DNA of 64,000 nt, from assembly GCA_963844965.1 (NCBI GenBank), contig CAWJQC010000004.1, positions 152,489-216,488 of the forward strand, read 5' to 3'. The DNA is from an uncultured bacterium (GTDB lineage Bacteria; Patescibacteriota; Minisyncoccia; UBA6257; 2-01-FULL-56-20). The position numbers and the translations under genes are program-made. The notes below the pieces were generated by a model, which saw only the letters and a list, made by a program, of their open reading frames with translations, was not told the DNA's origin and searched no databases. Shown piece by piece: positions 5,704 through 41,145 of the stretch. Within the stretch, counting starts at the first letter, position 1, and every line of letters starts with the position of its first letter.

Positions 5704-6489
5704 TTAAAGCTGATATTTTCGCTTAAACCTTTTTATCGCCTCTCTAGCGCCAGGCAAAGCTGTGGTGTTGTACAACTTACTTAGGTTGTCAAGAAAACTC
5801 GGACCAAATGATTCCTCAAATAATTTAACAACGTCCTGGTTTTCAAGCGTCTCCCCGTTCAATAAAGCCTGCACCAATGCCTCCCAACACACGCGCTCGC
5901 TCTGCTGATTCTTAGTTGCCAACCTCTTTACCATGGCATTGACTAAAGAAACTTCTAGGTTATAGGAAAATCCTTGATCGCTTGCGACTGCCGTTTTGTA
6001 TGCACTTACCCGATCCTCGGGCCATCTTGATCGCTCTGCGTAAGCCACGGTGATTTCCCTGGAGAGCTTTTCCACTACGCCCTCGTTAAGCGCATCGAAC
6101 AAGCAGCCGAAATTACTGTTGCGGTATATGCTGCTGACTCGGCCCGACCTTCGGAAGTTGATGCCTTCTTCGCCCAACTTTCGAAACAGGCCGGATTGTT
6201 TATAGTCTACGTATTCTTCGGTTCTTCGATCTGGGTGTTCGTAGGTATTCCACATACAGATATTTCGACTTACTGCATGCGTTTCCTCGTGTGCCAGCAC
6301 AGCAAGCTGTATTAACTCTGCCCCTCCGCATTTTTCAAGTTTCGCTTTTGCTGACTTCCGCCTTTTCGGATCCAAGTCAGAATAATCATCAACACGGCTA
6401 AGCACAATGACGTTGTTTTCCGGATTGTAGCTATGACCTGGACCCGCTATTTTAGACACAAAGGTCGAAACCAAGTACCATTGTGTCAT
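5704..6489 (-). CDS. HExxH-motif protein, putative zinc metallopeptidase-like
   Basis: ORF with LAHEETHAV. I take the start to be MTQWY at 6489, because the upstream ORF extension is antisense to recombinase sequence and matches the spurious antisense ORF at 18688-18978. Confidence 0.4.
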   Translation of the reverse strand: MTQWYLVSTFVSKIAGPGHSYNPENNVIVLSRVDDYSDLDPKRRKSAKAKLEKCGGAELIQLAVLAHEETHAVSRNICMWNTYEHPDRRTEEYVDYKQSGLFRKLGEEGINFRRSGRVSSIYRNSNFGCLFDALNEGVVEKLSREITVAYAERSRWPEDRVSAYKTAVASDQGFSYNLEVSLVNAMVKRLATKNQQSERVCWEALVQALLNGETLENQDVVKLFEESFGPSFLDNLSKLYNTTALPGAREAIKRFKRKYQL

Positions 6490-7836
6490 GACTAACAAAA
6501 AGGGGCATCGTATCCCCATGCTCCGCCGCATTGAGCGGGGCGAGGCGCAGGGTATCATCTGTTGGAAACTAGATCGAGTGGCACGCAATATGCAGGACGG
6601 CGGAAAGACCATTGAACTCCTTAAACAAGGAGTGATCCAACATATTCGTGCCTTCGCAAGCAGTTACTATCCGCAAGACAACGTGCTCCTCATGTGCATA
6701 GAGTTCGGCATAGCTGACCAATATGTTCGCGATTTAAGTGCTAACACTTCGCGCGGATTGAGATACAAAGCAAGCTTGGGTATCTACCCCGGCCTCGCCC
6801 CGTTCGGATATATAAACGATCCACAGACCAAGACCGTTATCGTAAACCGCAAGAACGCAAAGCTCGTCAAAAAAACTTTTGAGATTTACGCGACGGGCAA
6901 AGTCCGCCTTGAAAATCTTGCCGATCTTTGGGAGAAGGCGGGCGTCATGTCTAAAGGCAACCGTCGCGTCCATATTTCAAGAATGTCTTTCATTCTGCAA
7001 AATCCTTTCTACTACGGACACTTTCGTTATTGCGGCGAGATACACGAAGGCAAGCATGAGCCAATCATTACGAAAGACCTCTACGATAAAGCGAACGCTG
7101 TCCTGCGAAGCCGAGGCCGTGTGCCGGACATTAAGAACGACCCAAGCCCTTACTGCGGCCTCCTGCGGTGCGGCGAGTGCGGTATGGGTATTACGGCCGA
7201 GGACAAGACAAAGCACCAAAAGAACGGCAACGTCCACCACTACGTTTATTACCGTTGTACCCGCAAATCGAAGACGCACAAGTGCCACGAAGCACCCGTG
7301 CGGAGCGAGATACTGGATCGGCAGTTGTCGGCTCTTATCGCCGACTACGCCATGCCCAAAGAGTGGGTAGCCCCTTTGTCGGCTATGCTCGACCAAGAGG
7401 CCATAAACGCCAAACAGACGGCGTCGGTGGCCGTTCAAGAGTTGCGGGAGCAGGTGCAAGACCTTACCCGCGACCTCGCCAGACTTACCGATGTCTATGT
7501 TGCACAAGACATAGAGCGAGATGACTACCTTGAGAGGCGTCGTTCGCTCATGTCGGAAAAGAAGTCCGTCGAGGAGCAAATAGCCCGTCTTGAACGAACC
7601 CCCTCCGCGTGGATTGAACCTGCCCGAAGTTGGATTCGGGACGCTTCAATACTGGACGAAACAGCAAAAAACTTCGACCTCCCCTCCAAAAAACTCTCCC
7701 TCCAAAAAATCTTCGGATTGAACCTCTTTCTTAAAAACCGTCGTATCGAATTTAACCCCATCAAACCTTACGCTTCGCTCCGCGAAGCGCGCGTAAATTT
7801 TTCTGAAACTGACTTACCTTTGAAACTGGAGCGGGT
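6488..7836 (+). pseudogene. Large serine recombinase, 5'-truncated. It lacks the catalytic N-terminal ~65 aa including the YxRxST serine.
   Basis: It aligns with the intact paralog at 18647-20251 from MLRRIERGEAQGIICWKLDRVARN (=MLALIEKGEAQGILCWKLDRLARN) onward. It retains the recombinase domain, the zinc ribbon (CGxCG…YYRC) and the coiled coil. An upstream in-frame stop lies at 6434-6436. Confidence 0.75.
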
Positions 7837-7905
7837 AACGGGAATCGAACCCGTGTGTCAACCTTGGCTCCGTCACCATAAGAAGGACTGCTTGCTTTTT
7901 CCGTG
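7837..7905 (-). other. tRNA 3'-half-like remnant (T-arm, acceptor 3' strand and CCA). Probable att-site remnant or pseudo-tRNA.
   Basis: The minus-strand sense reads …ACGGGTTCGATTCCCGTTACCCGCTCCA. No complementary 5' acceptor strand (GCGGGTA) was found. It is similar to the 3' half of tRNA-Gly at 20163-20236. Confidence 0.45.
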
Positions 7906-7909
7906 AGTG

Positions 7910-8248
7910 TATTTACAACACCGCTTGGACTTATTTTAACAAAAAACTCTGACTTTGGCGAGGCCGGAAGGGGTCGTTGAGGGGGTCGTTCCAGAACGAC
8001 TACCTTTTGAATTGAAAATACTCGGCGAGCACTGGCTTCTCTGCCTCTCGCGGAGTTTTTTCTTACCCCCGACAATACCTCCTTTGAGGAGGTTGAAGGT
8101 TGCCCCTTCGCCCCTCGCCTGCTGGCTCGGGGCTCGGGGCTTATATTGTTGTGGGCTGGATGCGCTAATTTTCCTCGGCTCCGCTCTCCTTGGCCGAGTT
8201 GAAAAACACGAACCGCAGTTGATGCGCGCGGGTGGGAGAGAAACTTTG
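7910..8248. repeat. Left copy of an ~340-bp imperfect inverted repeat (partner at 13150-13505)
   Basis: Hand alignment with the reverse complement of 13150-13505 gives roughly 80-90% identity. Example: gtgtatttacaacaccgcttggacttattttaac…ggtcgttgagggggtcgttccagaacgactacc…cctcggctccgctctccttggccgagttgaaaaa. Confidence 0.8.
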
Positions 8249-8312
8249 AGCCAAGGAGGAGCGGAGGCCTCGGAAAATCGGCCTCTTACTGATATAATGA
8301 ATATATAATGCT

Positions 8313-9185
8313 ATGCCGAAACATACCAGCAAAAAATTTGTCAGAAGCCCAGACAATGGCGGCCGATTGCGCATCCAGCCCAGCGACGTCGCGCTCCTCC
8401 GCGATTTGTCGGAATATCGTTTCCTGAACACCGAGCAGGTTTTGGCCCTGCACCACCGAGGTTTGCGCAACCTCCAACGCCGCTTGCACGATTTGTACCA
8501 CGCGGGGTATCTTGAACGCCCTCCCCAGCAGAACATCTCCGCTCTGCCGAAAGGTCATATCGTTTACGGCTTGGGGGCGAAGGGTGCGGAGCTTCTTTAT
8601 GAAAATCGGGAGGAGCGCGCCGAAAAACTCCGGCAAGTGAAGCTGAACCGCGAGACAACGTTTCCCTACATCGCCCACGCTTTGATGATTTCCCAGTTCC
8701 GCGCGGCCTTGACACTGGCGGCGGAAAAAACCGGAGGGAAGATGAAAGTTGCGAGATGGCGACAGGGCTTTGAATTGAAAAACTATTTGAAGCTCCGCGG
8801 CGGAACTCCCGAACTCATGCCGGACGCGTTTTTCGCGATTGAACAGGGCGACAGACGCTGGAACTTGTTTTTGGAAACCGACCGCTCCACGATGACACTT
8901 GACCGGTTTTTGGTAAAGCTCAAAACATACTGGAAATGGTGGTGGGAGGAAAAATACAAAGAACAGCTCGGCATCTCGCACTTCCGCGTGCTTACCATAA
9001 CCATTTCCGAAGAACGGAAGGAGAACCTTCTCCGCGTCGCCAAAAACGCCGACCCGAGAAGGCAAGGGAGCAACATGTTTTTGTTTATTTCCGAAAAAGA
9101 GTTTTCGCTGAAGAAGCCGGAGGCGGTGTTGTCTCCGGTGTGGCTTTCGCCGAGAGACGGATTGAAACATTCGTTTCTTGAATAA
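8313..9185 (+). CDS. Replication-relaxation (Replic_Relax) family protein
   Basis: N-terminal VALLRDLSEYRFLNTEQVLALHH pattern and ~290 aa, typical of PF13814 proteins from plasmids and integrative elements. Confidence 0.55.
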   Translation: MPKHTSKKFVRSPDNGGRLRIQPSDVALLRDLSEYRFLNTEQVLALHHRGLRNLQRRLHDLYHAGYLERPPQQNISALPKGHIVYGLGAKGAELLYENREERAEKLRQVKLNRETTFPYIAHALMISQFRAALTLAAEKTGGKMKVARWRQGFELKNYLKLRGGTPELMPDAFFAIEQGDRRWNLFLETDRSTMTLDRFLVKLKTYWKWWWEEKYKEQLGISHFRVLTITISEERKENLLRVAKNADPRRQGSNMFLFISEKEFSLKKPEAVLSPVWLSPRDGLKHSFLE

Positions 9186-9245
9186 ATTAGCGGCGGCCAC
9201 GAGGTCGAAGCGGCCGCCAGTTTTTTAAAAAGTTCCCTATACTTT

Positions 9246-10004
9246 ATGCCGCATACGCCGACGACAACGACAATAATCGTGGGCGCGCTCATGGTCATCG
9301 CCACCGCGCTTTTTTGCGTCGCGGCTTATTTTGTCATCAAATACGCGCTCCGCTTCGTCGGAAAAATGTTCAGCTTCGTAAACGAGGTGGCAAACATCGT
9401 CAGGGAAAGGAAAGACCGGTATCTTGTTGGGCCGGTTTGGGGATGGGACATACAAGACCGGATAGAAGAATGGGACAAGCCGGACGAGGAGTGGTCGGTT
9501 ATGGTCGAAGGAGCGGCGGGATACGGCGAAGAATTTTTGGAGCGCGTCGCTCGCCGCGCGCTTGACGAAAACATTCCCCGGCTTGTGGTGAGAAAGCGGA
9601 TTGTCTGGCCGTATCTGCGCCGAAAATGGCAACCGGTTCTTGTGATAACCAACAAGAAAATAAAGGGCTATCAAATGCTGATTGACGCGACAGACTACAC
9701 CGACCGCCTTGATGTTTGGTGGCGAGTTGATAAAGGCGACCGCGACCAACTGCCCTTGAGAGGGGCGGAAATACGGGAAAAGAGATTCGGGCTCGATTCG
9801 TCGGGCGTTCTTGAAGCCCAAGCCCAACAAGAGAAAAACTGGGTATTTCCCGAACAGATGACCGCTCTCGACAAGCAGGAGTGGGACAACTGCACTGGTT
9901 TGGTGCGCGATATTGTCAGAGCCGAGGTAAAACGGATGGCGGACGAAGTTCGTATCGGCGGCGGCGTGGCTGGCGGCGCGAAGGGATTTATTGACATCAA
10001 CTAA
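9246..10004 (+). CDS. Membrane-anchored hypothetical protein
   Basis: 252-aa ORF with a single N-terminal TM (IIVGALMVIATALFCVAAYFVI). Confidence 0.45.
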   Translation: MPHTPTTTTIIVGALMVIATALFCVAAYFVIKYALRFVGKMFSFVNEVANIVRERKDRYLVGPVWGWDIQDRIEEWDKPDEEWSVMVEGAAGYGEEFLERVARRALDENIPRLVVRKRIVWPYLRRKWQPVLVITNKKIKGYQMLIDATDYTDRLDVWWRVDKGDRDQLPLRGAEIREKRFGLDSSGVLEAQAQQEKNWVFPEQMTALDKQEWDNCTGLVRDIVRAEVKRMADEVRIGGGVAGGAKGFIDIN

Positions 10005-11583
10005 CTATGAAAAACGGATTTTTAAAAACAATTTTGGACTGGATACTGGACTGGCGTTATCCGCTCCCGCCCCCGCCGGAGCCGGACTTGCCTCTTTTTC
10101 CGAGCAGTCGGAGGAACCGATGGCGGACAAATTCAAACTGCCGAGGCCCAACGAGCTTGTTCTCGGCAGTACGACAACCAAAGGGCCGGACGGCAAGGCA
10201 GAAGGCAAGACAAAGGGCGTGTCGCAGGACGACCGCTCGACCCATTTTTACGTGGTGGGAGCGACCGGCACGGGCAAGACGAAATTTTTGGAAACCCTAA
10301 TCTTGCAGGACGCGATGAACGCGCACGGCTTTGGCATCGTGGACGCGCAGGGCGATTTGACGGAAGACATCAAGAGCTATCTTTTCATTCTTACCTTCCC
10401 AAACGAACCGGAGGAAACCGCCGAATTTGAAAAAGATTCGGAAAAAGCCCTCAAAAAAATTAAAAGATTTTTGAGCGAACGCGTCGTGCTGATAGACCCG
10501 TCCGACAGGGAAAGAACTGTTTGCTTTAATCCGCTTGAAAAAGTGGAGGGGCTTTCGCCCGCCGGAATCGCGAGCGAAGCAGTGGAGGCGTTCAAGAAAA
10601 TCTGGCATGACGCTTGGGGCGCGAGAATGGAAGACCTGCTCAAAAATTCTCTGATAGCCCTCGTCGAGAACGACCTCACCCTCGCCGAACTTCCCCTGTT
10701 TCTTTCCGACATCGGGGCGAGAAAAAAGATTCTGAAAAAAGTCATCCATCCCGTCTGCCGCCAGTATTTTGAAAAGTTCAATTCTTTGAGGTCGTCGTTG
10801 CAGGACGAGTGGGCGGAATCAACTCTGAACAAGGCCCGCGCCTTCATGTCCAACGACCACGTGCGGCAGATGCTCTCGGCGGTTAAAAGCACTTTCAACT
10901 TCCGCGACATAATGGACGACCGGAAAATTCTGCTGGTGAAGCTGAATCGCGGAAAATTGAAGGGCGACGCCGACCTGCTCGGCTCTTTGCTTCTCTCCAA
11001 AATCCAGATGGCCGCCTTTTCTCGGACGGACGTTCCGCAATCCGAACGCGTGCCGTTTTATCTTTACATCGATGAGTTTCAGAATTTTGCGACCGAGAGT
11101 TTTATCCAAACGCTCGCCGAAGCGAGAAAGTATGGCCTGTCGATTACGCTGGCTCATCAGAATCTCGCCCAGCTACCGCCGTCCCTGCGGGCGTCGATAC
11201 TCTCCAACTGCGGCTTGCAGGCGTACTTCCGCATCTCGCGCGACGACGCGAACATGCTAGCTAGGGAATCTCTCGCTTCCGTTTACGAAGAGCCGCCCGG
11301 CTGGGAGTTTTACGTCCGCTCGCTTCAAGAACTGCCGAGGCGCGAGTGCGTGATAAAACATAAAATCGCGGGAGGCGTGATTGCCGTCCACACCATCGGA
11401 CTGCCTACCCCTTGGGAATGGGCGAAGATGGACGAAAAGAAATTCTCGGAGGGACTGGCCGCGATGAATACCGGCGGCGCGTACATGCGCAAGCGCGAGG
11501 ACATAGAGAAAGAATATCGGTCGAGGCAAGAGGCCCTCCGATTTATGGACGAGCCGGAGAGTTTCTGGGAGCGGAAGGTTTAA
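9991..11583 (+). CDS. TraG/VirD4/TraD-like (TrwB-type) conjugative coupling ATPase
   Basis: P-loop VVGATGTGKT. Walker-B-like LYIDEFQNF. C-terminal ~500 aa typical of type IV coupling proteins. Confidence 0.6.
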   Translation: MTSTNYEKRIFKNNFGLDTGLALSAPAPAGAGLASFSEQSEEPMADKFKLPRPNELVLGSTTTKGPDGKAEGKTKGVSQDDRSTHFYVVGATGTGKTKFLETLILQDAMNAHGFGIVDAQGDLTEDIKSYLFILTFPNEPEETAEFEKDSEKALKKIKRFLSERVVLIDPSDRERTVCFNPLEKVEGLSPAGIASEAVEAFKKIWHDAWGARMEDLLKNSLIALVENDLTLAELPLFLSDIGARKKILKKVIHPVCRQYFEKFNSLRSSLQDEWAESTLNKARAFMSNDHVRQMLSAVKSTFNFRDIMDDRKILLVKLNRGKLKGDADLLGSLLLSKIQMAAFSRTDVPQSERVPFYLYIDEFQNFATESFIQTLAEARKYGLSITLAHQNLAQLPPSLRASILSNCGLQAYFRISRDDANMLARESLASVYEEPPGWEFYVRSLQELPRRECVIKHKIAGGVIAVHTIGLPTPWEWAKMDEKKFSEGLAAMNTGGAYMRKREDIEKEYRSRQEALRFMDEPESFWERKV

Positions 11584-11892
11584 CCGCGCCTATTTGACAA
11601 ACCGGACTTGAAAATGGTATCTTCTCCCCAGTTTCATTACCCCCGCCGTCCGCGCTAAAGCGGTGCGGCGGGAAAGCGGAACGCGAGGGAGATCGCGCTC
11701 TCGCCCGTTCCCTTGGATGGCTCCTCCTCGAACCGCCGAGAAGAAGGAATGAAACTTTTTCATAATAAAGAGTACAATAAAAGGACGTCACGGGACGTCC
11801 TTTTATTTTTTTGAACTGGAACATCTCGCAACCGAAATAGAGCCGCTCGGCAAAACCACCTTCCACGAGAAGGGCGTTTTATTCGGCATCAG

Positions 11893-13109
11893 GCCCAAAG
11901 ACCGCCGCCATCATATGTACGTTATCGGGCAGACCGGCACCGGCAAGTCCACGCTCTTGAAGAATATGGTGATACAGGACTTGCGGTTCGGCCACGGGGT
12001 GCGCGGTCATTGATCCCCACGGCGAACTGGTGGAAGACATTTTGAACTTCGTGCCGCGCTCGCCGCACGAACGAGGTCGTGTATTTCAATCCGGCGGACA
12101 CGGAAAACCCCATCGGCTTGAATATCCTTGAAGCCCGCGACGAGAACGAAAAACAGCTCGTCGCTTCGTCGCTCATCTCGGTATTCAAGCATTTGTGGAA
12201 AGGGTTTTGGGGTCCGCGGCTTGAGCACGTTTTCCATAACGCCATACTTGCTTTGATGGACACGCCGGGCAGTACCTTGCTCGGCATTTACCGGATGCTC
12301 GCGGACGACGAATACCGGCAGCAAGTCGTCGGCGCAGGTCAAAGACCCCGTCGTGAGATTGTTTTGGAAGGAGGATTTTGAGAAGTATCCGCCGCAACTT
12401 CAAAAAAGAAGTCGCCTCGCCGATTCAGAACAAAATCGGCCAGCTTCTCACGAGCACGCCCTTGCGAAACATCGTCGGCCAGTCCCGGAGCACGATTGAT
12501 CTGCGCTTCATTATGGACAACCAGAGAATTTTCCTTGTGAACCTCGCCAAAGGCACGGATCGGCGAGGACAAGGCAAATCTGCTCGGCTCGGTGCTCGTT
12601 ACGAAGCTGTACCTTGCCGCGCTTGAACGGCAGGACATGCCGGAGGAGGAACGCAAGGATTTTTATCTGTACATTGACGAGTTTCAGAACTTCTCCACGG
12701 ACGTTTTCCCGTCTATCTTGTCGGAAGCCAGAAAATATCGGCTTGAACCTCATTCTCGCCCATCAATATCTTATATCAGCTTTCGGAGAGCGTGAAGCAC
12801 TCGGTTTTCGGCAACGTCGGCACGCTCGCGTCTTTTCGCGTCGGAAGCATCGACGCGCGCGAACTGGCCGAGGAGTTCAGCCCGACTTTCACCAAAGAAG
12901 ACCTGGAACACACCGAAAACTATCACGCCTACCTCAAGCTGATGATAGACGGGAAGCGATCCACTCCTTTTTCCGCCGAAACGCTCCCGCCTCTCGCCCA
13001 TCAGGGCGACGAGGCGCAGAAAGAAACGCTCATTAGAGTTTCACGGGAGCGTTTCGCGTCAAAGCGAGAGGACATGACGGAGAAAATCGAAAAATGGTTT
13101 TCAAAGTAA
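11893..13109 (+). pseudogene. Degraded paralog of the coupling ATPase, with multiple frameshifts and stops
   Basis: P-loop HHMYVIGQTGTGKSTLLKNM, YLYIDEFQNFSTDVF and C-terminal homology are spread over at least 4 frames (ORFs 12079.., 12378.., 12592.., 12792..). Confidence 0.7.
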
Positions 13110-13149
13110 ACCATTTTTCATGTTTTTTTTCCTCGGCCTTGCGGCCTGA

Positions 13150-13505
13150 GCGGATTTTCTTTTTTTGTTTTCCTTCCCACCCGCGCGTAGAATACGATTC
13201 GGTTTTTTCAACTCGGCCAAGGAGAGCGGAGCCGAGGAAATACGCTAGAGACAGCCCAGCATACAATAGTAAGTCCCGAGCCCCGAGCAGCAGCGAGGGG
13301 CGAAGGGGCAAACCTTCACCCTCCCAAAAGGAGGTATTGTCGGGGGTGTCGAAAGGTCCGAGGCGGAGCGAAGAAGCCAATATCAGCGGAGTAATTTCAA
13401 TTCACGGGGTAGTCGTTCTGGAACGACCCCCTCAACGACTCCTTCGGGCCTCGCCAAAGTCAGAGATTTTGGTTAAAATAAGTCCAAGCGGTGTTGTAAA
13501 TACAC
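13150..13505. repeat. Right copy of the ~340-bp imperfect inverted repeat (partner at 7910-8248)
   Basis: See 7910-8248. Confidence 0.8.
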
Positions 13506-13665
13506 TCCATAACACAACTTAAAGGTTTTTTATTCACCGAACAATGGGCTTCCACAATGGAAGCCCATTGTTTTTCCGCAAAACCGCGCGCTTCGCGCGC
13601 GTGGAGTGTCAGGTTCAATCCGAAAATTTTTTGAGCGAACGATTTTTTGAGGGGTAAGGGGGTCG
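13506..13665 (-). repeat. Perfect inverted duplicate (~160 bp) of the 3' end of the recombinase gene at 20007-20167
   Basis: The reverse complement of 13506-13665 equals 20007-20167 base-for-base in the segments compared. These include the 13+3+13 palindrome caatgggcttcca-nnn-tggaagcccattg and the gcgcgc-ttcg-cgcgcg hairpin. It is a remnant 3' end of a recombinase gene pointing toward the inverted repeat. Confidence 0.85.
13537..13573 (+). terminator. Rho-independent terminator-like hairpin (caatgggcttccacaatggaagcccattg + TTTTTCC)
   Basis: Perfect 13-bp stem followed by a T5 run on the plus strand. The same element on the minus strand at 20099-20135 can terminate tRNA-Gly transcription. Confidence 0.5.
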
Positions 13666-13756
13666 CAGATAAAGATATAATGCTTGCCCCGCCCTTCCCG
13701 TGCGCGCATTATGTATTTTTGCCGATTTTGAAATCGGCAACTCCCTTATAACGATT

Positions 13757-16462
13757 TTACCTTTTCAGACCATATTTCTGTTCTCGTTTCTGGAAAGCTT
13801 CTGTGCCGCCCTCAAGAACGTCATAGATTGTCTTCCGCATCTCTATATTCTCTAACGAACCTTGTAGGGCATTAACCTTACTTTTATCATCAACGGATAA
13901 AGCAGTTATCAATTCTGAATCGCCCAAGACAACGATATTGGCGTTATGGGTGCAAATAATTATCTGCCTGTTCACTTTTTGCTCTCTAACCAAAGTTACT
14001 ACCTTCTCTGCTACGAATTTTGCGTCAAGGTGATCCTCCGGCTGGTCAATGATAAGTGGATGGTCGCCAGACAACAATATAAGTTCCACCAAAGTGCCGC
14101 ATCGCTCGCCGAACGACATACTATCTTTGCCGAGTATTTTAGTTCCATATTTAATGTGATTTTCTCCGGTTTCCGCATATTCATCTAGCCGCATTATTAG
14201 GTCTTCTCTAATAATTTGAGTATTCGGGTCTTCAAAAAACCACCGCAGAGTTTCTGTCTTTCCGCTACTATCTTGTAATTTTGGTATTCTATTTTCTTTA
14301 ATAGTGGAAATTATCTTTTCCCTTGCGACATCACCAGTAGCTTTGCCGACAAGTTCGTTTATTACATCTTTAACGTAATCCTCTCTGACGGGAGATTTTA
14401 TCTTAAAATTCTTTTCAATGACACCCTTTAACTCGTCGTTTGATTGGAGGAACTGCTCCTTTATCCACGGAGCAATATCACCACTTGGATCGTCCCATAC
14501 GGCAGTGATTGTTGTATCCTTAAAAGATTCGTTGAACCCGCCAATAAGTTTTTGGTTTTCCTTTATCCAGAGTTTTAGTTTTGCCGCCAGTTGATTCACG
14601 AGTTGGCTGTGTTGTTTCTTATCGCCTTCAAACTTTTTTAGGCGATTTTCAAGTTGCGATGATTGCTGGTCAATAAACTTAATTCTGTTGTTTCGCTTTT
14701 CTACCTCACTCTTTGTTATAGTAACGCCGTTTAGCTTACAGTAATCGGTAAACTGCTTTGTAAGTTCTGCGCTTTCTCTATCCAGTTCTTTTTTTACATC
14801 GGATTCTCTTACTTCCTTTACTGCTCCTTCTAAATTCTTAACTACGGAATCCAGTTGAGATTCTTTTAGGTTATAAAAATCTTCAATTTTTTTCTTTAGC
14901 GCATTTTTCTCCGCAAAAAGTTCTAAAACTTTATCTTTATCAACAGTAGTAGAAAGTTTAAGTTGCCCTGCGAATTTTTTAATGAGGACGGCTTGGGCTT
15001 CAATATCTTGGATCAAGCCATCAATCAACTGGCGTTTGGCTCTATTGCTTTTAATTTTTTCGGCAAGGTCTTTATATTCTTTTGTTTTTAACTTCTTAAA
15101 GTAAGATTCAATTTGTTCTCGTTCCGCTTCAAGTTTCTTTTTGTCTATTTCTACTTGGAGTTTATCGGCGTAACTGTTACGGGTAGTTTCCATTTCTACA
15201 GCCAACGCCTCTATTTCCTCTTTTGTCTTAATGAGTAGATCGGAATGAAGACGGCCTCCTATGTAATCCGCTATCTGTTTTGGGCTATCGGCTTTTTTCT
15301 CAATTTCTCCTTGTGTCCAGTATTCAACTTGAAAGGACGAAGTATAAAATGGGTCATTCCACTCTTTGACTTGACGCTTTAGAGATACTGGGTCTTCTGC
15401 TCCACTTTGAAAGATAACCTCAACTTCAAGATTGGGGAACTCCCTACTCAAAAATTCAATTAAGGAAAGTTTTTTGTCGCCTTTATCGGATGAAAACTTG
15501 TTAGCTACATATCCAATCAATTCTGCTAAAGCGGTCTTTCCGGCGGCTCGTGGCCCGATAACCGTGGTTAAATTCGGACTAAAAAACAGTTCTTGATTTA
15601 GAGTAATTGGTGGAAATATACTTCTCTTTGATTGATAACTTTGATGATTTAGCAATTTTGCGGATACAATCTGCGGATGAAGATAAAGTGGCGGACTATC
15701 ATCAAGACAAACTCTAATAACTGGCTCATAAATAATTTGTTTCAAACCTTCAAATGTTGGATCGGCCTTAATCCAACTATACTTCTTACCAATTACTTCC
15801 GTTGAGTGGCCGCTTTTGTATTGAAGTTTTGATCTATCGCAAGCGTCGGAAGTAATAATACACGGAAACTCCTGTTTAATCTTTGGGAACACTATTTTTC
15901 TGTAATCCTCAACCTGTTTTATGGCCGATACTTCAAAAATATCAACCAAAAACGCTAAATCTTTTTTTAGTGTCGCACGGACATCACTATCCAATTGTTC
16001 TATCCCGTTGGACTTGTTACCCGCGTGGAGTAAAACAAGCCCGTCTAACTCGTGTATTTTTTGACACGCGTCTTCAAAGTTACAGTAAATCTCCTTATCC
16101 CCCTTACCCTTAATATCGTTTTCCGAAAAATTAAGAGGGCAGAGTAATTTATCGTAAATAGTTTTTGAAGTAGTGGAAGAATCAAAAACTCCGATAATAT
16201 GTATCCCTTTATTGCCCTTATCGGTGCGCAGTTCAACGCCGGGGAGAATTGTTATATCTTTTCCTTTAGCAGCTTTTAGAACCTCGTCAATTCCTTTAAC
16301 GGTATGGTGGTCTGTAATAGCAATAACAGATATATTTTCTGTTATTGCCTTTTTCACTATGTCTTCCGCTTTGTCTTTACAGCCACTATCCCAATCATAA
16401 GAAGACGGGGTATGAACGTGCAAATCCCACTTTCTCCAAATTGAACCGCGGGGTGAATTCAT
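13757..16462 (-). CDS. PHP-family phosphoesterase fused to an SMC/Rad50/SbcC-like ABC ATPase with a long coiled-coil insertion. Putative nuclease-ATPase.
   Basis: 901 aa. N-terminal PHP motifs WDLHVHTPSSYD, ITDHH, LLHAGN, ITSDACD. Walker A GPRAAGKT at ~aa 300. ~350-aa Lys/Glu-rich coiled coil. Walker B LIIDQPEDHLD and H-loop ICTHNANI at the C-terminus. 6 bp from the methyltransferase gene. Confidence 0.7.
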   Translation of the reverse strand: MNSPRGSIWRKWDLHVHTPSSYDWDSGCKDKAEDIVKKAITENISVIAITDHHTVKGIDEVLKAAKGKDITILPGVELRTDKGNKGIHIIGVFDSSTTSKTIYDKLLCPLNFSENDIKGKGDKEIYCNFEDACQKIHELDGLVLLHAGNKSNGIEQLDSDVRATLKKDLAFLVDIFEVSAIKQVEDYRKIVFPKIKQEFPCIITSDACDRSKLQYKSGHSTEVIGKKYSWIKADPTFEGLKQIIYEPVIRVCLDDSPPLYLHPQIVSAKLLNHQSYQSKRSIFPPITLNQELFFSPNLTTVIGPRAAGKTALAELIGYVANKFSSDKGDKKLSLIEFLSREFPNLEVEVIFQSGAEDPVSLKRQVKEWNDPFYTSSFQVEYWTQGEIEKKADSPKQIADYIGGRLHSDLLIKTKEEIEALAVEMETTRNSYADKLQVEIDKKKLEAEREQIESYFKKLKTKEYKDLAEKIKSNRAKRQLIDGLIQDIEAQAVLIKKFAGQLKLSTTVDKDKVLELFAEKNALKKKIEDFYNLKESQLDSVVKNLEGAVKEVRESDVKKELDRESAELTKQFTDYCKLNGVTITKSEVEKRNNRIKFIDQQSSQLENRLKKFEGDKKQHSQLVNQLAAKLKLWIKENQKLIGGFNESFKDTTITAVWDDPSGDIAPWIKEQFLQSNDELKGVIEKNFKIKSPVREDYVKDVINELVGKATGDVAREKIISTIKENRIPKLQDSSGKTETLRWFFEDPNTQIIREDLIMRLDEYAETGENHIKYGTKILGKDSMSFGERCGTLVELILLSGDHPLIIDQPEDHLDAKFVAEKVVTLVREQKVNRQIIICTHNANIVVLGDSELITALSVDDKSKVNALQGSLENIEMRKTIYDVLEGGTEAFQKREQKYGLKR

Positions 16463-16468
16463 AAATTA

Positions 16469-17584
16469 TTACCTTTGTTTCAAAAACTCGTACTCAATCT
16501 TTGAAAATAAATTACTGGGTAAGTTAGACAATCTTTTTTTAGCAACCTTGATGGCCTGTTCTGATTTATCAATACCAATCCAATGTCGGCCAAGCTCTTG
16601 GGCGGCAACGAGGGTTGTCCCAGAGCCGCAAAAACAATCAAGAACTAAATCGTCTTTATTTGACGAAGCTTCAATAATAAACTTTAACAAGTCCAAACTT
16701 TTTTCTGTTGGATAATTGGGATACTGCGGGTCTTTAAATTCCCAAATATCCTGCATTTTCTTCCCTGTTCTCTCATCGAGGAAAATTTTTTTGCGTGGTA
16801 CTCCGCTTGCCGACCATTCAATAAGTCCTTGCTTATCCCATTCTTCTAAAATAGCCGGATTAGTTCGCCAATGGCGTCCTTTTGGTGGTTTTTGCCCTCG
16901 CCACTCCTTACTTGTATTCCCGTTTGATGTTTCTCCGGGTGCGTGGAGTGGGATTGTTGTATATCGCCGTCCGTCTTTATCAACTTTCTTAAACAAGCGA
17001 TCCTCGTCTTCCTCGGAGAATGAAACGTGTGGATCATTCCAAATCGGGTTTTCTGATTTGGAGTAAAAAAGTATCAAATCCTTGATATTGCCGTAGGCCT
17101 TACGATGAAAATTTTTCGGGTTACACTTAATGCGAGTAATATCGTTACGAAAACTTTTGCGACCAAAAACTTCATCCATTATAAGTTTCACATAGTGGCC
17201 GATTTTATAATCAATGTGAAGGTAAATTGACCCACGCTCGGATAGAAGTTCGCGCAAAAAAATCAGGCGTTCGCGTAGAAATTCTAAAAATTCCGCACCA
17301 ATTAACGTATCGCTATATGCAATCTCATCGCTATTGCTACTACTGATTGTATTGGCACGCCCCTCGCTTATTTTGAAATGGCCATTGGTTGCAAATGGTG
17401 GATCAATATAAATCAAATCAACCTTACCCCCATAATTATCAAGTAACGTTTTGAGAGTGGAAAGATTATCGCCATGAACAAGTTTATTTTTTGCCCCTTT
17501 GCCGGAAAGCACTTTCAAGTTAGCTCTTGGAGTGCTTTCAAGAATTTCACGCTCACCCTTTTTGCTTTCATAACTAAGAAGCAT
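16469..17584 (-). CDS. Site-specific DNA methyltransferase (N6-adenine/N4-cytosine, β-class permuted: DPPF then FCGSGTT)
   Basis: Motif IV IYIDPPF precedes motif I DCFCGSGTTLVAA. ParB-nuclease-free Mod/PvuII-like architecture. Confidence 0.8.
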   Translation of the reverse strand: MLLSYESKKGEREILESTPRANLKVLSGKGAKNKLVHGDNLSTLKTLLDNYGGKVDLIYIDPPFATNGHFKISEGRANTISSSNSDEIAYSDTLIGAEFLEFLRERLIFLRELLSERGSIYLHIDYKIGHYVKLIMDEVFGRKSFRNDITRIKCNPKNFHRKAYGNIKDLILFYSKSENPIWNDPHVSFSEEDEDRLFKKVDKDGRRYTTIPLHAPGETSNGNTSKEWRGQKPPKGRHWRTNPAILEEWDKQGLIEWSASGVPRKKIFLDERTGKKMQDIWEFKDPQYPNYPTEKSLDLLKFIIEASSNKDDLVLDCFCGSGTTLVAAQELGRHWIGIDKSEQAIKVAKKRLSNLPSNLFSKIEYEFLKQR

Positions 17585-17590
17585 ATAAAA

Positions 17591-18373
17591 TTATATTTGA
17601 TATAAGAATTCGCGCAGGACGAGTGCGCTCATAATATTCTCGTCCTTTAACTCGCCAGCGACCGCTTTATACATTTTGTTGTTGCCCTTGATATAAAGTA
17701 CCCCATCTAAAATGGCCACCTTAACCGCTTTAACACCCTTCGCTTTGATAGTGGCGATTGCGTCGTTAAATTGAGCATTTTGATGACCCCCAAAATCGGT
17801 TAAAAATTTTGCCTCTCCAATAACATACTTCCCGTTAAAACGCCCTATCAAATCAAGTCCTTTGTTATGATTGTAGTTCAAGTATTTTTTAGCAAAGGCC
17901 ATCGTTTCCGCATCTCCCGCATCAAGAACTGCGTTTCCTTTTGCCACTAAAAATTCCGACATCTTCAGCGGTTGCACTCCGAGAGTTTTTCTATTCAGCC
18001 AGCGGCGGAAAAGTGGGCCAATTTGTCGGTTTGTTTCTTTTGGCTCTGATGAACGAGAGAAAATTTGCTTAAGACCCATCTCATACAATCGGCCACATAG
18101 ACGAGCAACCGTCGCCGGATTGCGCTTTAATGCTTCTTTGTCGCGCTTAAGATAAGCAATGTAGGAATCTTTAATAGGAAATAAATCAAGCTTCAAAAGA
18201 TTTTCAAGAAGCGCAACATTGTTCCTTTTTTCAAACGCCTGTTCTACGTTTTTCCAAAGCGCCTTGTTAATGTCGCGAATTCCCTCTGGAATTGTTGGAT
18301 ATACTTGAAACAAATCATCGAGGTAGCTTCGCTGATTTGCGTAATCAATACTTAATTTTGTCCAATGGTTCAT
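17591..18373 (-). CDS. Putative Type II restriction endonuclease with a PD-(D/E)xK core (LDLIG…GEAKF)
   Basis: 260-aa ORF between the C-protein and methyltransferase genes, with 4-6 bp intergenic gaps. D…ExK motif GLDLIGRFNGKYVIGEAKFLTD. Confidence 0.6.
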   Translation of the reverse strand: MNHWTKLSIDYANQRSYLDDLFQVYPTIPEGIRDINKALWKNVEQAFEKRNNVALLENLLKLDLFPIKDSYIAYLKRDKEALKRNPATVARLCGRLYEMGLKQIFSRSSEPKETNRQIGPLFRRWLNRKTLGVQPLKMSEFLVAKGNAVLDAGDAETMAFAKKYLNYNHNKGLDLIGRFNGKYVIGEAKFLTDFGGHQNAQFNDAIATIKAKGVKAVKVAILDGVLYIKGNNKMYKAVAGELKDENIMSALVLREFLYQI

Positions 18374-18377
18374 GGTT

Positions 18378-18590
18378 TTATTTTATTAAGTCATCAACTG
18401 CGACATTTAGGGCTTTGGCTATTTTCGCCAAAGTTTCTATTGTCGGATTCTTATTAACACCCGATTCAATTTTAATCATGGTGTTATAGGTAACATCCGC
18501 CAATTTGGACAAACGATCTTGTGAAATGCCGAGTTTACTACGGTATTTTTTGATATTCTCGGCAATCCTTGATTTGTTGCTTGCTCCCAT
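18378..18590 (-). CDS. Controller (C) protein, XRE-family HTH regulator of the R-M operon
   Basis: 70 aa with an HTH (KLGISQDRLSKLADVTYNTMIKIESG). First gene of the C-R-M operon. Confidence 0.75.
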   Translation of the reverse strand: MGASNKSRIAENIKKYRSKLGISQDRLSKLADVTYNTMIKIESGVNKNPTIETLAKIAKALNVAVDDLIK

Positions 18591-18650
18591 AGTAATATAG
18601 TAGTATGATTGAACTAATAGCGAGTGATTTTGTTTAATCTATTACTATGG
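18587..18650. promoter_or_regulatory. Symmetric divergent control region. A 10-bp perfect inverted repeat (ccatagtaat … attactatgg) contains both start codons (C gene and recombinase); it is a candidate C-box/operator.
   Basis: 18587-18596 ccatagtaat and 18641-18650 attactatgg, separated by a 44-bp AT-rich spacer. Confidence 0.45.
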
Positions 18651-31789: not shown

Positions 31790-31820
31790 ATTGTTGCAGT
31801 GTACAAAAAAAAGCGGCCGT

Positions 31821-32210
31821 TCACAAGGAACGGCCACCAGCGATCTTTCCGGCACACAATTGCCGCAGGAATGGACTACCCTTTATAGTTCCGGCGTAGC
31901 CGAGTGTTTCGCCCACCTTGGCATGAGATTGATAGTAGGGAGCGACGCCTCCTCCGATTTCAACCATGGTTTCATGAGCCCACTTGGCGAGCTCATCGGC
32001 TGGCCTTTCGCATATTTTCACCATCACTATCTCCCGGCCCCCTTCCGACAAAACCAGGCATCCGGGATTCATGTCCAAGCGGGCGCGGAATATCCGCTCG
32101 GCTCCGCCCATAGAAACCCTCACATCGCCCTCCAAGCAAAGGTCTTTCTGTAATACAAGTTCTGCCCTAAGCTCTCCTCTTTCCTCAAAATCATTGCCAT
32201 TTGGTTTCAC
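31821..32210 (-). CDS. Hypothetical protein (possibly a PPC/DUF296-like fold)
   Basis: 129-aa ORF. Weak family resemblance only. Confidence 0.3.
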   Translation of the reverse strand: MKPNGNDFEERGELRAELVLQKDLCLEGDVRVSMGGAERIFRARLDMNPGCLVLSEGGREIVMVKICERPADELAKWAHETMVEIGGGVAPYYQSHAKVGETLGYAGTIKGSPFLRQLCAGKIAGGRSL

Positions 32211-41017: not shown

Positions 41018-41145
41018 TTGCAGAAGGCGAGGAACCACCAGTTGTCGTTCCACCTGTTGCCCCAGTAGTTGAGGTTCAGCTTGCGGTTCGAGGCATTGCC
41101 GTTCAGGTACGCCACGTTGCGATTGTCGTTCGGGATCCTGCCAGG
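41018..41145 (-). repeat. DGR template repeat (TR)
   Basis: ~128 bp homologous to the VR at 41523-41649. 13 mismatches, all at TR adenines on the coding (minus) strand. The TR translation is Asn-rich (NDNRNVAYLNGNASNRKLNLNYWGNRWNDNWW). Confidence 0.9.

What the first reader, a model, noticed from the sequence alone, without database searches (positions are those of the whole stretch)
7906..13510. 5.6-kb module bounded by ~340-bp imperfect inverted repeats carrying Replic_Relax, TraG/VirD4-like ATPase and its decayed paralog
7910-8248 and 13150-13505 are reverse-complement copies at roughly 80-90% identity. Between them lie a replication-relaxation family gene, a membrane protein gene, an intact TrwB/TraG-like coupling ATPase and a multiply frameshifted second copy of that ATPase. 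Each repeat is directly abutted on its outer side by the 3' end of a serine recombinase gene pointing inward; the left copy also has a tRNA 3'-half remnant. The repeats do not maintain a common reading frame, so they are non-coding. This could be a plasmid-derived or mobilisable module, or two head-to-head elements of which one has decayed.
Basis: seen in the sequence. Interest (0 to 1): 0.7.

Follow-up and report, generated by a model that had tools for sequence, protein, structure and literature searches.

The report
Integrated mobilisable element with split repeat
The inverted repeats are real, but they are one and a half copies of a ~0.5-kb repeat in a 12-kb mobile element inserted beside a tRNA gene of a CPR bacterium, and this design recurs in dozens of related genomes without appearing in the literature I could search.

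Summary
The inverted repeat is confirmed: 7905-8243 against 13507-13169, 83.6% identity, E 3e-90. The true unit is larger, a ~12.3-kb integrative mobilisable element (7905-20167) at the 3' end of tRNA-Gly(CCC). Its right arm continues into a 161-bp, 100%-identical inverted copy (13505-13665) of the 3' end of an intact large serine recombinase gene (18647-20251) that abuts the tRNA. Three junctions share a GAG core: flank|arm, recombinase-end|arm (inside the element), and recombinase-end|tRNA. The simplest reading is a circular element with one pair of ~0.5-kb inverted repeats, each holding the attachment core. Integration splits one copy and leaves the other intact. The arm is non-coding and carries a conserved half-site-like stretch and an oriT/iteron-like three-copy motif. 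One arc holds the mobilisation genes: MOBC/Replic_Relax relaxase, a membrane protein, a coupling ATPase, and a second, distinct ATPase that is now a pseudogene. The other arc holds an XRE regulator, the recombinase and low-GC defence cargo. At least 14 independent CPR loci show the same architecture, usually with 93-100% identical arms, and both orientation isomers occur. The left-hand recombinase gene is a truncated relic of an older element. What the repeat is for remains inferred.

The parts
6488..7906 (+). Relic of an older element. It is a large serine recombinase gene lacking its N-terminal ~70 residues, and its conserved 3' end segment (X1) is 7704-7831.
   Evidence: Pfam Resolvase (profile positions 55-141 only), Recombinase and Zn_ribbon_recom. 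It is 49% identical to residues 69-519 of the intact recombinase, with nothing matching residues 1-68. The X profile hits 7704-7831.
7827..7852 (-). 26-nt tRNA-Gly-like 3' end (T-arm, acceptor 3' strand, CCA) abutting the old recombinase end. It is followed (7853-7904) by 52 nt with no match.
   Evidence: blastn-short gives 88% identity to positions 49-74 of three tRNA-Gly genes. ARAGORN finds no tRNA even with relaxed settings. Rfam matches only a 17-nt T-arm-like stretch.
7905..8243 (+). Left arm (Y): the left end of the element (attL side). The shared core GAG is at 7905-7907, followed by a ~45-nt family-conserved stretch.
   Evidence: repeat; junction; family alignment A3.
7970..8004 (+). 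oriT/iteron-like motif in the left arm: GGGGTCGTT twice, then the inverted copy AACGACTAC (7 of 9 matching). The stretch is near-identical (one mismatch) in the right arm (13408-13442).
   Evidence: Sequence. The family-wide three-copy motif is present in 32 of 48 loci and 0 of 960 shuffles, with element-specific units. The window's own copy fails the <=1-mismatch criterion.
8313..9185 (+). Relaxase candidate: Replic_Relax (PF13814, the CONJscan MOBC class), a winged helix plus a nuclease-like domain.
9246..10004 (+). Small protein with one N-terminal membrane helix, conserved in relatives; its gene overlaps the start of the ATPase gene.
   Evidence: Hydropathy segment at residues 4-39. tblastn hits at 22-31% identity in the same position in many loci. 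No Pfam or PADLOC hit.
9991..11583 (+). Coupling-protein-like ATPase 1 (VirD4/TraG/TrwB family), intact and without a membrane segment.
   Evidence: Pfam TrwB_AAD_bind, T4SS-DNA_transf and TraG-D_C. Walker A GATGTGKT and Walker B YLYIDE, no hydrophobic segment. PDB sequence matches to DotL and TrwB.
11915..13109 (+). Pseudogene of the family's second ATPase (ATPase 2).
   Evidence: It is homologous over the full length of intact 378-395-aa orthologs from L012, L155, L116, L019 and L014, spread over three frames with in-frame stops. Identity to ATPase 1 is ~30%.
13169..13507 (-). Right arm (Y'): the inverted copy of the left arm and the inner half of the intact internal junction. The core CTC is at 13505-13507.
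13505..13665 (-). X': inverted copy of the recombinase gene's 3' end (last 53 codons before the core), 100% identical, directly contiguous with the right arm. It contains a perfect hairpin.
   Evidence: blastn 161/161, E 7e-79. tblastn matches residues 455-507 at 100%. The X profile hits it.
13757..18373 (-). Low-GC defence cargo: Ppl-like PHP-ATPase (13757-16462), type II methyltransferase (16469-17584) and Tsp45I-family restriction enzyme (17591-18373).
   Evidence: Pfam and PADLOC Ppl E 1e-33, MTase_II, REase_II. GC is 38-40% against 52-55% in the surroundings.
18378..18590 (-). XRE-type HTH regulator, divergent from the recombinase gene and conserved at this position in all elements examined.
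   Evidence: Pfam HTH_3 E 9e-13. Orthologs in L111, L020, L026, L036, L022 and L013.
18647..20251 (+). Intact large serine recombinase (the integrase). The ORF runs antisense through the tRNA, and the conserved part ends near the core.
   Evidence: Pfam Resolvase, Recombinase and Zn_ribbon_recom at full length. PDB sequence matches to A118 integrase and SPbeta SprA/YokA. N-terminal YARKST motif.
20007..20167 (+). X: the recombinase 3' end segment and right end of the element (attR side). The shared core GAG is at 20165-20167 and the hairpin at 20100-20132.
20163..20236 (-). tRNA-Gly(CCC), the integration target. The crossover falls in its last nucleotides (last acceptor base, discriminator base, first C of CCA).
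   Evidence: ARAGORN, Rfam 70.5 bits and junction comparison.

Best explanation
The region 7905-20167 is one integrated mobile element of the 'integrative and mobilisable' kind. It sits at the 3' end of tRNA-Gly(CCC) in a CPR/Patescibacteria chromosome.

In its free circular form the element would carry a single pair of ~0.5-kb inverted repeats that divide it into two arcs. Each repeat copy consists of three parts:
- the last ~160 bp of the recombinase gene (X);
- a 3-5-nt crossover core (O, here GAG);
- ~340 bp of non-coding DNA upstream of the relaxase gene (Y). Y carries a conserved stretch next to the core that probably binds the recombinase, and an oriT/iteron-like motif of two direct units plus one inverted unit.

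The element's large serine recombinase joins the core of one repeat copy to the last nucleotides of the tRNA gene. That copy is split: Y becomes the left end (7905-8243), and X stays attached to the recombinase gene beside the tRNA (20007-20167). The second repeat copy stays whole inside the element (13169-13665).

Arc A (8244-13168) is the transfer module: MOBC-class relaxase, a small membrane protein, and two coupling-type ATPases, the second now dead. Arc B (13666-20006) holds an XRE regulator, the recombinase and exchangeable defence cargo. The truncated recombinase gene on the left is a relic of an older element at the same tRNA locus.

Shown here: the repeats, the three junctions with a shared core, the gene content, and recurrence of the design in many genomes in both orientations.
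Inferred: recombinase catalysis at the core, a circular intermediate, nicking at the motif, and use of the host's chromosomal type IV secretion system for transfer.
Speculative: what the second repeat copy is for. My best guess is that homologous recombination between the copies flips the arcs and keeps the copies identical. That would place one transfer origin on each strand and let arcs be swapped between related elements.
For: Repeat and extension: 7905-8243 matches 13507-13169, and 13505-13665 equals the reverse complement of 20007-20167 at 100%.

Junction logic: flank|GAG|Y, X|GAG|Y and X|GAG|tRNA in the window. The same three-way sharing holds with TGCTC in L020 (tRNA-Asn) and TGGAG in L036 (tRNA-Gly).

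Recombinase: full Resolvase, Recombinase and Zn-ribbon architecture, related to A118 and SPbeta integrases.

Family recurrence: arm pairs of 285-351 bp at 98-100% identity in L006, L012, L014, L019, L020, L036, L116 and L155, and shorter or more diverged pairs at 93-97% in L111, L018 and L013. An inverted X lies directly against the inner arm in every one of them. The full recombinase abuts a tRNA in L020, L036, L022, L010, L015, L023 and L025, and truncated copies do so in L045 and L093. The targets are Gly, Asn, Ser, Val, Leu, Thr, Ala and Arg.

Both isomers occur. The intact copy is next to ATPase 2 in the window and at least 13 loci, and next to the relaxase in L022, L086, L096 and L103. 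L022 and L117/L118 are ~90% identical yet opposite.

Assembly signature of a repeat: about 35 of 80 metagenome contigs start within 650 nt upstream of the relaxase gene. Arc-A contigs are capped by k-mer-sized inverted pieces. The only other assembly of this strain breaks at window 8246, 3 nt past the inner edge (8243) of the left arm.

Arm function: an ordered set of conserved blocks. The three-copy motif with element-specific, fully compensated units is present in 32 of 48 loci and 0 of 960 shuffles. The relaxase has a winged-helix DNA-binding domain.

Cargo slot: a different defence system sits between X' and the XRE-recombinase pair in each element. In the window this region has low GC.

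Chromosomal setting: housekeeping genes lie on both sides.
Against: - No circular form, empty target site or read-level evidence was available. Excision and integration are inferred from junctions alone.
- The window's arms are only 83.6% identical while relatives' are 93-100%, and ATPase 2 is a pseudogene. This particular copy may be immobile or a hybrid.
- Minimal relatives without any internal repeat exist (L015: arm, relaxase, recombinase, tRNA-Val), so the repeat is not required for integration.
- Serine integrases are not known to recombine two attP sites (my knowledge), so any flipping must be by homologous recombination. In short-read assemblies the orientation of an arc between perfect repeats can be an assembler's choice.
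- No dyad symmetry peak was found at the inferred cores across 10 junctions.
- No directionality factor was identified.
- The window's own three-copy motif is imperfect (7 of 9 in the inverted unit).
- No type IV secretion genes were found on the element. I did not look for them elsewhere in the genome.
Confidence: 0.7

Rival explanations
1. Two adjacent, independently mobile units, each bounded by its own terminal inverted repeats. One is a relaxase/ATPase cassette flanked by the ~340-bp arms (7905-13507). The other is a recombinase-plus-cargo cassette flanked by the 161-bp recombinase-end repeats (13505-20167). They merely sit side by side.
For: Each arc is formally bracketed by its own inverted pair. 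In L015 and L139 a recombinase gene alone is bracketed by inverted X copies. Arc contents vary independently between loci.
Against: The inner arm and X' are contiguous, overlapping in the same few nucleotides, in all 14 or more loci. Arc A was never found without X' next to it. The left junction shares the core with the tRNA junction, as expected if one recombination event created both ends. Serine recombinases of this class act on short att sites, not on long terminal repeats (my knowledge).
Confidence: 0.1
2. A programmed invertible switch. The recombinase itself flips one arc between the inverted cores, as in Hin/Gin/Cin systems, to change expression of transfer or defence genes. The element is otherwise fixed in the chromosome.
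For: Inverted cores lie inside near-perfect repeats. Both orientations occur among close relatives. An outward-facing promoter-like site is present in both arms (weak). The recombinase ORF tail changes with its downstream partner.
Against: The recombinase is of the large integrase type, not a small invertase. Flipping either arc changes no coding sequence and leaves each gene with the same upstream repeat. The tRNA targets differ between elements, and the flank|core|arm junctions indicate insertion. The promoter scan is not above shuffles.
Confidence: 0.1
3. Two head-to-head copies of one element, the right one largely decayed.
For: There are inverted arms, a dead ATPase gene near the right arm, and recombinase-derived sequence outside both arms.
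Against: The dead ATPase is on the same strand as the live one, so the interval is not mirror-symmetric. It is the ortholog of a distinct second ATPase that is intact in relatives. The arrangement recurs with intact genes and 98-100% identical arms elsewhere.
Confidence: 0.03
4. Assembly artefact. The perfect 161-bp inverted repeat and the arm pair arise from mis-joining population variants, or integrated and excised forms, in a metagenome assembly.
For: The window comes from a metagenome-assembled contig. A 161-bp perfect repeat is near read length. Many related contigs break at these repeats.
Against: The same double-repeat layout is found in independent samples and assemblers. These include very long contigs (L036 868 kb, L116 460 kb, L020 421 kb, L006 284 kb) whose names suggest long-read assembly; that last point is an inference. 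The window's arms differ at 16% of positions, so they cannot be collapsed copies.
Confidence: 0.02

Closest known systems
Integrative and mobilisable elements (IMEs) of Firmicutes, including those with a serine recombinase and a PF13814/MOBC relaxase (PMC5704250, PMC5357655)
   Same: They combine an integration module with a relaxase and often a coupling protein, lack mating-pore genes, and insert site-specifically. PF13814 is listed there as a relaxase superfamily.
   Different: This element is in CPR bacteria. Its recombinase targets the last nucleotides of tRNA genes. It has two coupling-type ATPases. The attachment site lies inside a long inverted repeat, of which a second intact copy stays inside the integrated element. 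Transfer has not been shown.
Yeast 2-micron plasmid (FLP/FRT within 599-bp inverted repeats; from my knowledge)
   Same: A circle is divided into two unique arcs by one pair of long, identical inverted repeats that contain the recombination site. Two orientation isomers exist.
   Different: The 2-micron plasmid uses a tyrosine recombinase that itself inverts the arcs and drives copy-number amplification, and it does not integrate. Here the enzyme is a serine integrase whose site is used for chromosomal insertion. Inversion by the enzyme is unproven and unlikely.
Phage-type large serine integrases (A118, SPbeta SprA, phiC31, Bxb1)
   Same: They share the domain architecture and have sequence-detectable homology. 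Very short identity between partner sites at the crossover is seen here as 3-5-nt shared cores.
   Different: The known enzymes mostly target protein-coding genes (my knowledge). This family uses the 3' ends of many different tRNA genes, and its ORF reads antisense into the tRNA. The expected dyad symmetry was not detected.
Mobilisable transposons Tn4451/Tn4453 (large serine recombinase TnpX, Mob protein TnpZ, oriT RS_A; from my knowledge, not checked here)
   Same: A large serine recombinase excises and integrates a small element that carries its own relaxase and oriT upstream of the relaxase gene. The crossover is at a GA-containing dinucleotide.
   Different: Those elements have a different relaxase family, no coupling ATPases, no tRNA target and no long internal inverted repeat.
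MOBC relaxase systems: pAD1 TraX/oriT2 and CloDF13 MobC (from my knowledge; class assignment from PMC5357655)
   Same: They use a restriction-endonuclease-like relaxase family encoded next to a coupling-type ATPase. The oriT is built from inverted plus short direct repeats upstream of the relaxase gene.
   Different: Sequence similarity to annotated plasmids is almost nil: one 31% hit in PLSDB. Nicking has not been tested, and here the motif is duplicated in inverted orientation.
Pipolins and other bimodular defence-carrying integrative elements (PMC11551731, abstract only)
   Same: They are integrative elements with a conserved backbone and a slot holding exchangeable defence systems.
   Different: The backbone is unrelated (no PolB). 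Here the slot is delimited by the inverted recombinase-end copy and an XRE-recombinase pair.

Membership tests
Large serine recombinase (integrase type) | N-terminal resolvase catalytic domain, then a Recombinase domain, then a zinc-ribbon domain | tested here: met
   The three Pfam domains occur in order in 18647-20251. There is sequence homology to A118 integrase and SPbeta SprA structures. The left copy (6488-7906) lacks profile positions 1-54 of the catalytic domain.
Large serine recombinase (integrase type) | Catalytic serine in the N-terminal motif | tested here: inconclusive
   The N-terminus reads YARKSTDVEDKQ, resembling the Y-x-R-x-S-T motif I know from the family. No residue-level alignment to a characterised enzyme was made.
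Large serine recombinase (integrase type) | Recombination between short att sites that share only a few central nucleotides, giving hybrid junctions | tested here: met
   Three-way junction comparison gives shared cores of GAG (window), TGCTC (L020) and TGGAG (L036), with unrelated flanks.
Large serine recombinase (integrase type) | att sites are imperfect palindromes centred on the crossover dinucleotide | tested here: not met
   There is no dyad-symmetry peak at the inferred cores in 10 internal junctions, and mean scores are at the random expectation. The GTTGT..ACAAC pattern seen by eye in the window and L012 is anecdotal.
Large serine recombinase (integrase type) | Catalyses attP x attB integration, and excision with a directionality factor | not testable with these tools
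   This needs an enzyme assay or read-level evidence. No directionality factor was identified.
MOBC relaxase (Replic_Relax, PF13814) | Match to the family profile above its curated threshold | tested here: met
   90.6 bits against a cut-off of 25.3, E 1.8e-25. PF13814 is listed as the MOBC class in PMC5357655.
MOBC relaxase (Replic_Relax, PF13814) | PD-(D/E)XK nuclease-like catalytic domain, usually fused to an HTH domain (PMC3424549) | tested here: inconclusive
MOBC relaxase (Replic_Relax, PF13814) | Site-specific nicking at an oriT | not testable with these tools
   There is only a candidate site: the three-copy motif ~300-340 nt upstream of the gene.
Type IV coupling protein (VirD4/TraG/TrwB) | Profile matches and Walker A/B NTPase motifs | tested here: met
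   TrwB_AAD_bind, T4SS-DNA_transf and TraG-D_C. GATGTGKT and YLYIDE. DotL and TrwB in the PDB.
Type IV coupling protein (VirD4/TraG/TrwB) | N-terminal transmembrane anchor | tested here: not met
   There is no hydrophobic segment in 9991-11583. A separate single-helix membrane protein is encoded just upstream, and its gene overlaps the ATPase gene.
Integrative and mobilisable element (IME) | Own integration module plus relaxase/oriT, without mating-pore (VirB4 etc.) genes | tested here: met
   All ORFs of 7905-20167 are accounted for and none is a mating-pore component. This applies to the element only. The rest of the genome was not searched.
Integrative and mobilisable element (IME) | Excision to a circle and transfer through a helper's secretion system | not testable with these tools
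   No reads were available. PMC12102498 reports a conserved chromosomal T4SS in Patescibacteria that mostly lacks a relaxase, which makes a helper plausible.
Integrative and conjugative element (ICE) | Encodes its own type IV secretion system | tested here: not met
   No such genes lie between 7905 and 20167.
2-micron-like architecture | Recombination site located within a pair of long inverted repeats that split a circle into two arcs | tested here: inconclusive
   The integrated form fits exactly: one copy is split at the core and one is intact. The circle itself was not observed.
2-micron-like architecture | Two orientation isomers interconverted by the element's recombinase | tested here: inconclusive
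   Both isomers occur among related elements. This was not seen within one strain, the agent is unknown, and short-read assemblies can mis-orient such arcs.

The most novel reading that the evidence does not exclude
This is a widespread, undescribed family of CPR/Patescibacteria mobilisable elements. Their attachment site and transfer origin sit together inside a long inverted repeat, so the circular form is a bacterial counterpart of the 2-micron plasmid layout. The second repeat copy has a function of its own: arc flipping with copy-number amplification, one transfer origin per strand, or cassette exchange of defence cargo. The family's MOBC relaxases and paired coupling ATPases would be the missing DNA-transfer substrates of the enigmatic, relaxase-less chromosomal type IV secretion system of these bacteria.
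Probability: 0.25. Interest if true: 0.8.

Novelty: new variant of a known kind. Interest (0 to 1): 0.65.

Why it matters
CPR/Patescibacteria make up a large share of bacterial diversity, yet almost nothing is known about how they exchange DNA. A recent survey found a conserved chromosomal type IV secretion system in them. It found few relaxases, with MOBC the commonest class, and concluded that the system is probably not used for conjugation unless unusual relaxases turn up (PMC12102498).

The element dissected here gives those MOBC relaxases a defined genetic context, with these features:
- It is a site-specific integrative element with clear ends.
- It has a tRNA-targeting serine integrase.
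- It has a candidate transfer origin.
- It has two coupling ATPases.
- It has a slot filled with a different defence system in each element.

Homologs are numerous: 298 hits in species-representative genomes and more than 513 in JGI metagenomes. This makes conjugative or mobilised DNA transfer in CPR directly testable.

The layout, with the attachment site inside a long inverted repeat that leaves an intact second copy after integration, is not one I know from other integrative elements. It also explains why these regions fragment in short-read assemblies. Finally, serine integrases that target the extreme 3' end of various tRNA genes could serve as tools.

Tried and rejected
- **Structured RNA in the arms.** Rfam at gathering threshold finds only the real tRNA in the window. 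A permissive scan of 7700-8320 finds nothing meaningful. Single-sequence folds are only mildly better than shuffles, z -2.1 and -3.6. The co-varying unit is present in three copies, two direct and one inverted, which fits a protein-binding DNA site better than an RNA helix.
- **Degenerate whole tRNA left of the arm.** ARAGORN finds none at any relaxed threshold, and only 26 nt are tRNA-like.
- **Dyad symmetry at the cores.** No signal.
- **Promoters and terminators.** Counts are not above shuffles, so I did not use them, apart from noting hairpins.
- **Other configurations of this very element.** The only other assemblies are two short Logan contigs from one run. The recombinase and XRE products are not on record.
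- **Viral collection.** No relatives.
- **Annotated plasmids.** One weak hit, 31% identity in Bradyrhizobium.
- **Circular contigs among 160 fetched loci.** None were found.
- **Literature.** Six searches found no description of this architecture. PMC12455944 reports genomic islands with R-M systems in Patescibacteria without a mechanism.
- **Coding potential of the arms.** The overlapping ORFs on both strands do not keep a frame between the arms because of indels.
- **Head-to-head-elements and assembly-artefact readings.** Considered and rejected (see rival explanations).

Full report
**Observation.** A self-comparison of the window shows the reported inverse diagonal: 7905-8243 against 13507-13169, 83.6% identity over 347 columns, E 2.7e-90 (blocks, alignment). 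Pfam confirms the genes between the arms:
- Replic_Relax at 8313-9185.
- An unannotated 252-aa protein at 9246-10004 with one N-terminal membrane helix.
- A TrwB/TraG/VirD4-type ATPase at 9991-11583.

The 'decayed second copy' is real but is not a copy. It is only ~30% identical to the intact ATPase. It aligns over its whole length, across three reading frames and in-frame stops, to intact 378-395-aa proteins that occupy the same position in related elements. It is therefore the pseudogene of a second, distinct ATPase that belongs to the family's standard gene set.

The same self-comparison shows that the right arm runs straight into 161 bp (13505-13665) that are a 100%-identical inverted copy of 20007-20167. 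That segment is the 3' end of an intact 534-aa large serine recombinase gene (18647-20251) with Resolvase, Recombinase and zinc-ribbon domains. The gene is homologous to the A118 and SPbeta integrases. It ends against the only tRNA gene in the window, tRNA-Gly(CCC) at 20163-20236 on the opposite strand. So the 'recombinase 3' end' to the right of the repeat is a detached fragment of a gene that lies 6.5 kb further on. The recombinase ORF on the left (6488-7906) is 49% identical to the intact one but lacks the first ~70 residues, including the catalytic region.

**Junctions.** I call the recombinase-end segment X and the arm Y. Three junctions can then be compared:
- Left: ...TTTTTCCGT|GAG|TGTATTTACAAC (flank|Y).
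- Internal, read on the minus strand: ...TTGTGTTATG|GAG|TGTATTTACAAC (X|Y).
- Right: ...TTGTGTTATG|GAG|CGGGCGAAGGG (X|tRNA 3' end).

This is the pattern expected from site-specific recombination. The internal junction has the structure of an intact attP, and the two outer junctions are the hybrid sites. The crossover falls in the last acceptor base, the discriminator and the first C of CCA of the tRNA. The same three-way sharing holds in two unrelated genomes, with cores TGCTC (L020, tRNA-Asn) and TGGAG (L036, tRNA-Gly).

**Related loci.** The Replic_Relax protein has hundreds of homologs, almost all from Patescibacteria/CPR assemblies. Using an alignment of them (A2) I fetched 80 loci from species-representative genomes (298 confirmed hits) and 80 from JGI metagenomes (at least 513 hits). 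Mapping proteins, repeats and tRNAs and a profile of X shows one recurring layout:

Y - relaxase - (membrane protein) - ATPase 1 - (sometimes tRNA-Arg) - ATPase 2 - Y' inverted - X' inverted - variable cargo - XRE regulator (divergent) - recombinase - X - tRNA on the opposite strand.

- Arm pairs are 285-351 bp long and 98-100% identical in L006, L012, L014, L019, L020, L036, L116 and L155. Shorter or more diverged pairs, 93-97% identical, occur in L111, L018 and L013.
- In every one of these loci an inverted X lies directly against the inner arm.
- Where the locus reaches far enough (L020, L036, L111, L026, L022, L013), X' is a near-perfect copy of the 3' end of a full recombinase gene, which abuts a tRNA where one was detected.
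- Homologous recombinases abut tRNAs for Gly, Asn, Ser, Val, Leu, Thr, Ala and Arg. This argues that the tRNA is the target rather than cargo.
- Several of these contigs are very long (284-868 kb), so the layout is not a short-contig artefact.
- Conversely, about 35 of the 80 metagenome contigs begin within 650 nt upstream of the relaxase gene. Several arc-only contigs are capped at both ends by inverted pieces of k-mer size. The only other assembly of the window's own strain breaks at window 8246, 3 nt past the inner edge (8243) of the left arm. These are the marks a repeat leaves in short-read assemblies.

**Model.** The most economical explanation is that the free element is a circle with one pair of ~0.5-kb inverted repeats, each reading X-core-Y, which split it into two arcs. 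Integration through the core of one copy leaves Y at one end and X, still attached to the recombinase gene, at the other. The second copy remains whole inside. In the window the element is then 7905-20167, about 12.3 kb.

Four loci (L022, L086, L096, L103) have the intact copy on the relaxase side instead of the ATPase-2 side. L022 and L117/L118 are ~90% identical yet opposite. Both isomers therefore exist, as expected if the repeat copies recombine. The near-identity of the two copies within each element, against ~48% mean column identity between elements, also points to ongoing homogenisation.

**What the arm contains.** An alignment of twelve arms (A3) shows a fixed order:
1. The core.
2. 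About 45 conserved nucleotides (TATTTACAACACCG...TTTTA.CAAAAA), plausibly the recombinase's half-site.
3. A motif of two ~10-nt direct units followed, after a ~12-nt spacer, by an inverted unit.
4. GC-rich blocks.
5. A TATAAT box just before the relaxase start. In the window this box lies outside the repeat.

The units differ between elements (CCTAGTCATTC, CCCCTTCATCC, CCCCATCATTC, CCCCTACATTC, GGTAGTCACT, and GGGGTCGTT here), with all three copies changing together. The motif is found in 32 of 48 non-redundant loci and in none of 960 shuffles. The window's own inverted unit matches only 7 of 9.

**The other arc.** A 70-aa XRE-type regulator gene (18378-18590), divergent from the recombinase gene, is conserved in all elements examined. 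Beyond it the content varies:
- Window: a Tsp45I-type restriction enzyme, a type II methyltransferase and a Ppl-like PHP-ATPase, at 38-40% GC against 52-55% around them.
- L020: an EcoRI-type methylase with GmrSD/HNH.
- L026: Shedu.
- L036: a type III R-M system.
- L111: an Mrr-like nuclease.

This arc is therefore a slot for defence cargo.

**Setting and left flank.** Genes on both sides of the element are ordinary chromosomal genes. The truncated recombinase on the left ends in its own X segment (7704-7831). That segment abuts a 26-nt tRNA-Gly-like 3' fragment (7827-7852), followed by 52 unexplained nucleotides. L020 and L036 also have an older, divergent recombinase gene pointing at the left arm. 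In L036 the flank still resembles X. Successive elements seem to pile up at the same tRNA locus.

**State of this copy.** The recombinase, relaxase, ATPase 1, XRE gene and all three cores are intact. ATPase 2 is dead, and the arms are far more diverged (16%) than in any relative, while X and X' are identical. This copy is either decaying or a hybrid whose arc A came from a related element. I cannot tell which.

**What is known.** The parts are familiar: serine integrase, MOBC relaxase, coupling ATPase, the integrative mobilisable element concept, and defence cargo. I found no description of the combination in the library. The combination consists of an attachment site inside a long inverted repeat of which an intact copy persists after integration, tRNA 3'-end targeting by a serine integrase, and a CPR host. 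PMC12102498 notes that MOBC is the commonest relaxase class in Patescibacteria and that relaxase genes are often near coupling-protein genes, but it does not mention recombinases or element structure. Annotated plasmids and viral contigs hold essentially no relatives. I therefore rate it a new variant of a known kind.

**Limits.** No reads were available, so excision, the circular form, empty sites and within-population inversion are all inferred. The purpose of the second repeat copy is unknown. A minimal relative without it exists (L015), so integration does not need it. Serine integrases are not known to recombine two attP sites. The expected dyad symmetry at the cores was not detected.

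Noticed in passing
window 18647-20251 and 6488-7906; also L010, L015, L020, L025, L036: The recombinase ORFs have no stop before the tRNA and read antisense through it, giving tails such as ..ERAKGIEPSS.. and ..ERVTGIEPV.. In the joined X-core-Y configuration the tail would instead be ..MECIYNTAWTYFNQNL*. The protein's C-terminus therefore differs between integrated and free states.
   Followed up: partly
L012 15946-16019, L031 3131-3203, L086 5124-5197, L009 6392-6464: Several related elements carry a tRNA-Arg(TCT) gene between the two ATPase genes. The window has a 14-bp-stem bidirectional hairpin at 11776-11807 in that position instead.
   Followed up: no
L015 10001-12535: This is a minimal relative of about 2.9 kb: arm, relaxase, full recombinase, tRNA-Val. 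It has no internal repeat, no ATPases and no cargo.
   Followed up: partly
L108 about 5935, compared with L016 2582-2762 and L109 4717-4892: Near-identical elements (99-100%) differ by a ~180-nt indel in the arm that removes the three-copy motif in L108.
   Followed up: no
L083 437-2469: The relaxase gene is interrupted by about 1.1 kb: residues 1-57 at 437-607 and residues 46-290 at 1735-2469. This could be an insertion or intron-like element.
   Followed up: no
window 7933-7961 (minus) and 13451-13479 (plus): A promoter-like site (TCGCCA-17-TAAAAT) in both arms faces outward across the core. In the circle it would read antisense into the recombinase 3' end. It is a weak match, and the scan as a whole is not above shuffles.
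   Followed up: no
window 29949-31855: LepA appears split into two overlapping minus-strand ORFs (29949-31091 and 31055-31855). This is either a frameshift or an assembly error.
   Followed up: no
window 50648-51311, 52145-52800, 49138-49586, 41018-41651: There are diverged direct repeats with periods of about 120-140 nt inside ORFs 50457-51701 and 51979-53022, plus two further repeat pairs.
   Followed up: no
window 5704-6612 (minus), 21338-22360 (minus), 23971-26961 (minus): These ORFs of 302, 340 and 996 aa have no Pfam hit. The first overlaps the truncated start of the old recombinase gene.
   Followed up: no
L020 7932-9248 and L036 8940-9539: As in the window, the left flank of the element holds a divergent (24-28% identity) or decayed recombinase gene pointing at the arm. 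This suggests repeated insertion of such elements at the same tRNA.
   Followed up: partly
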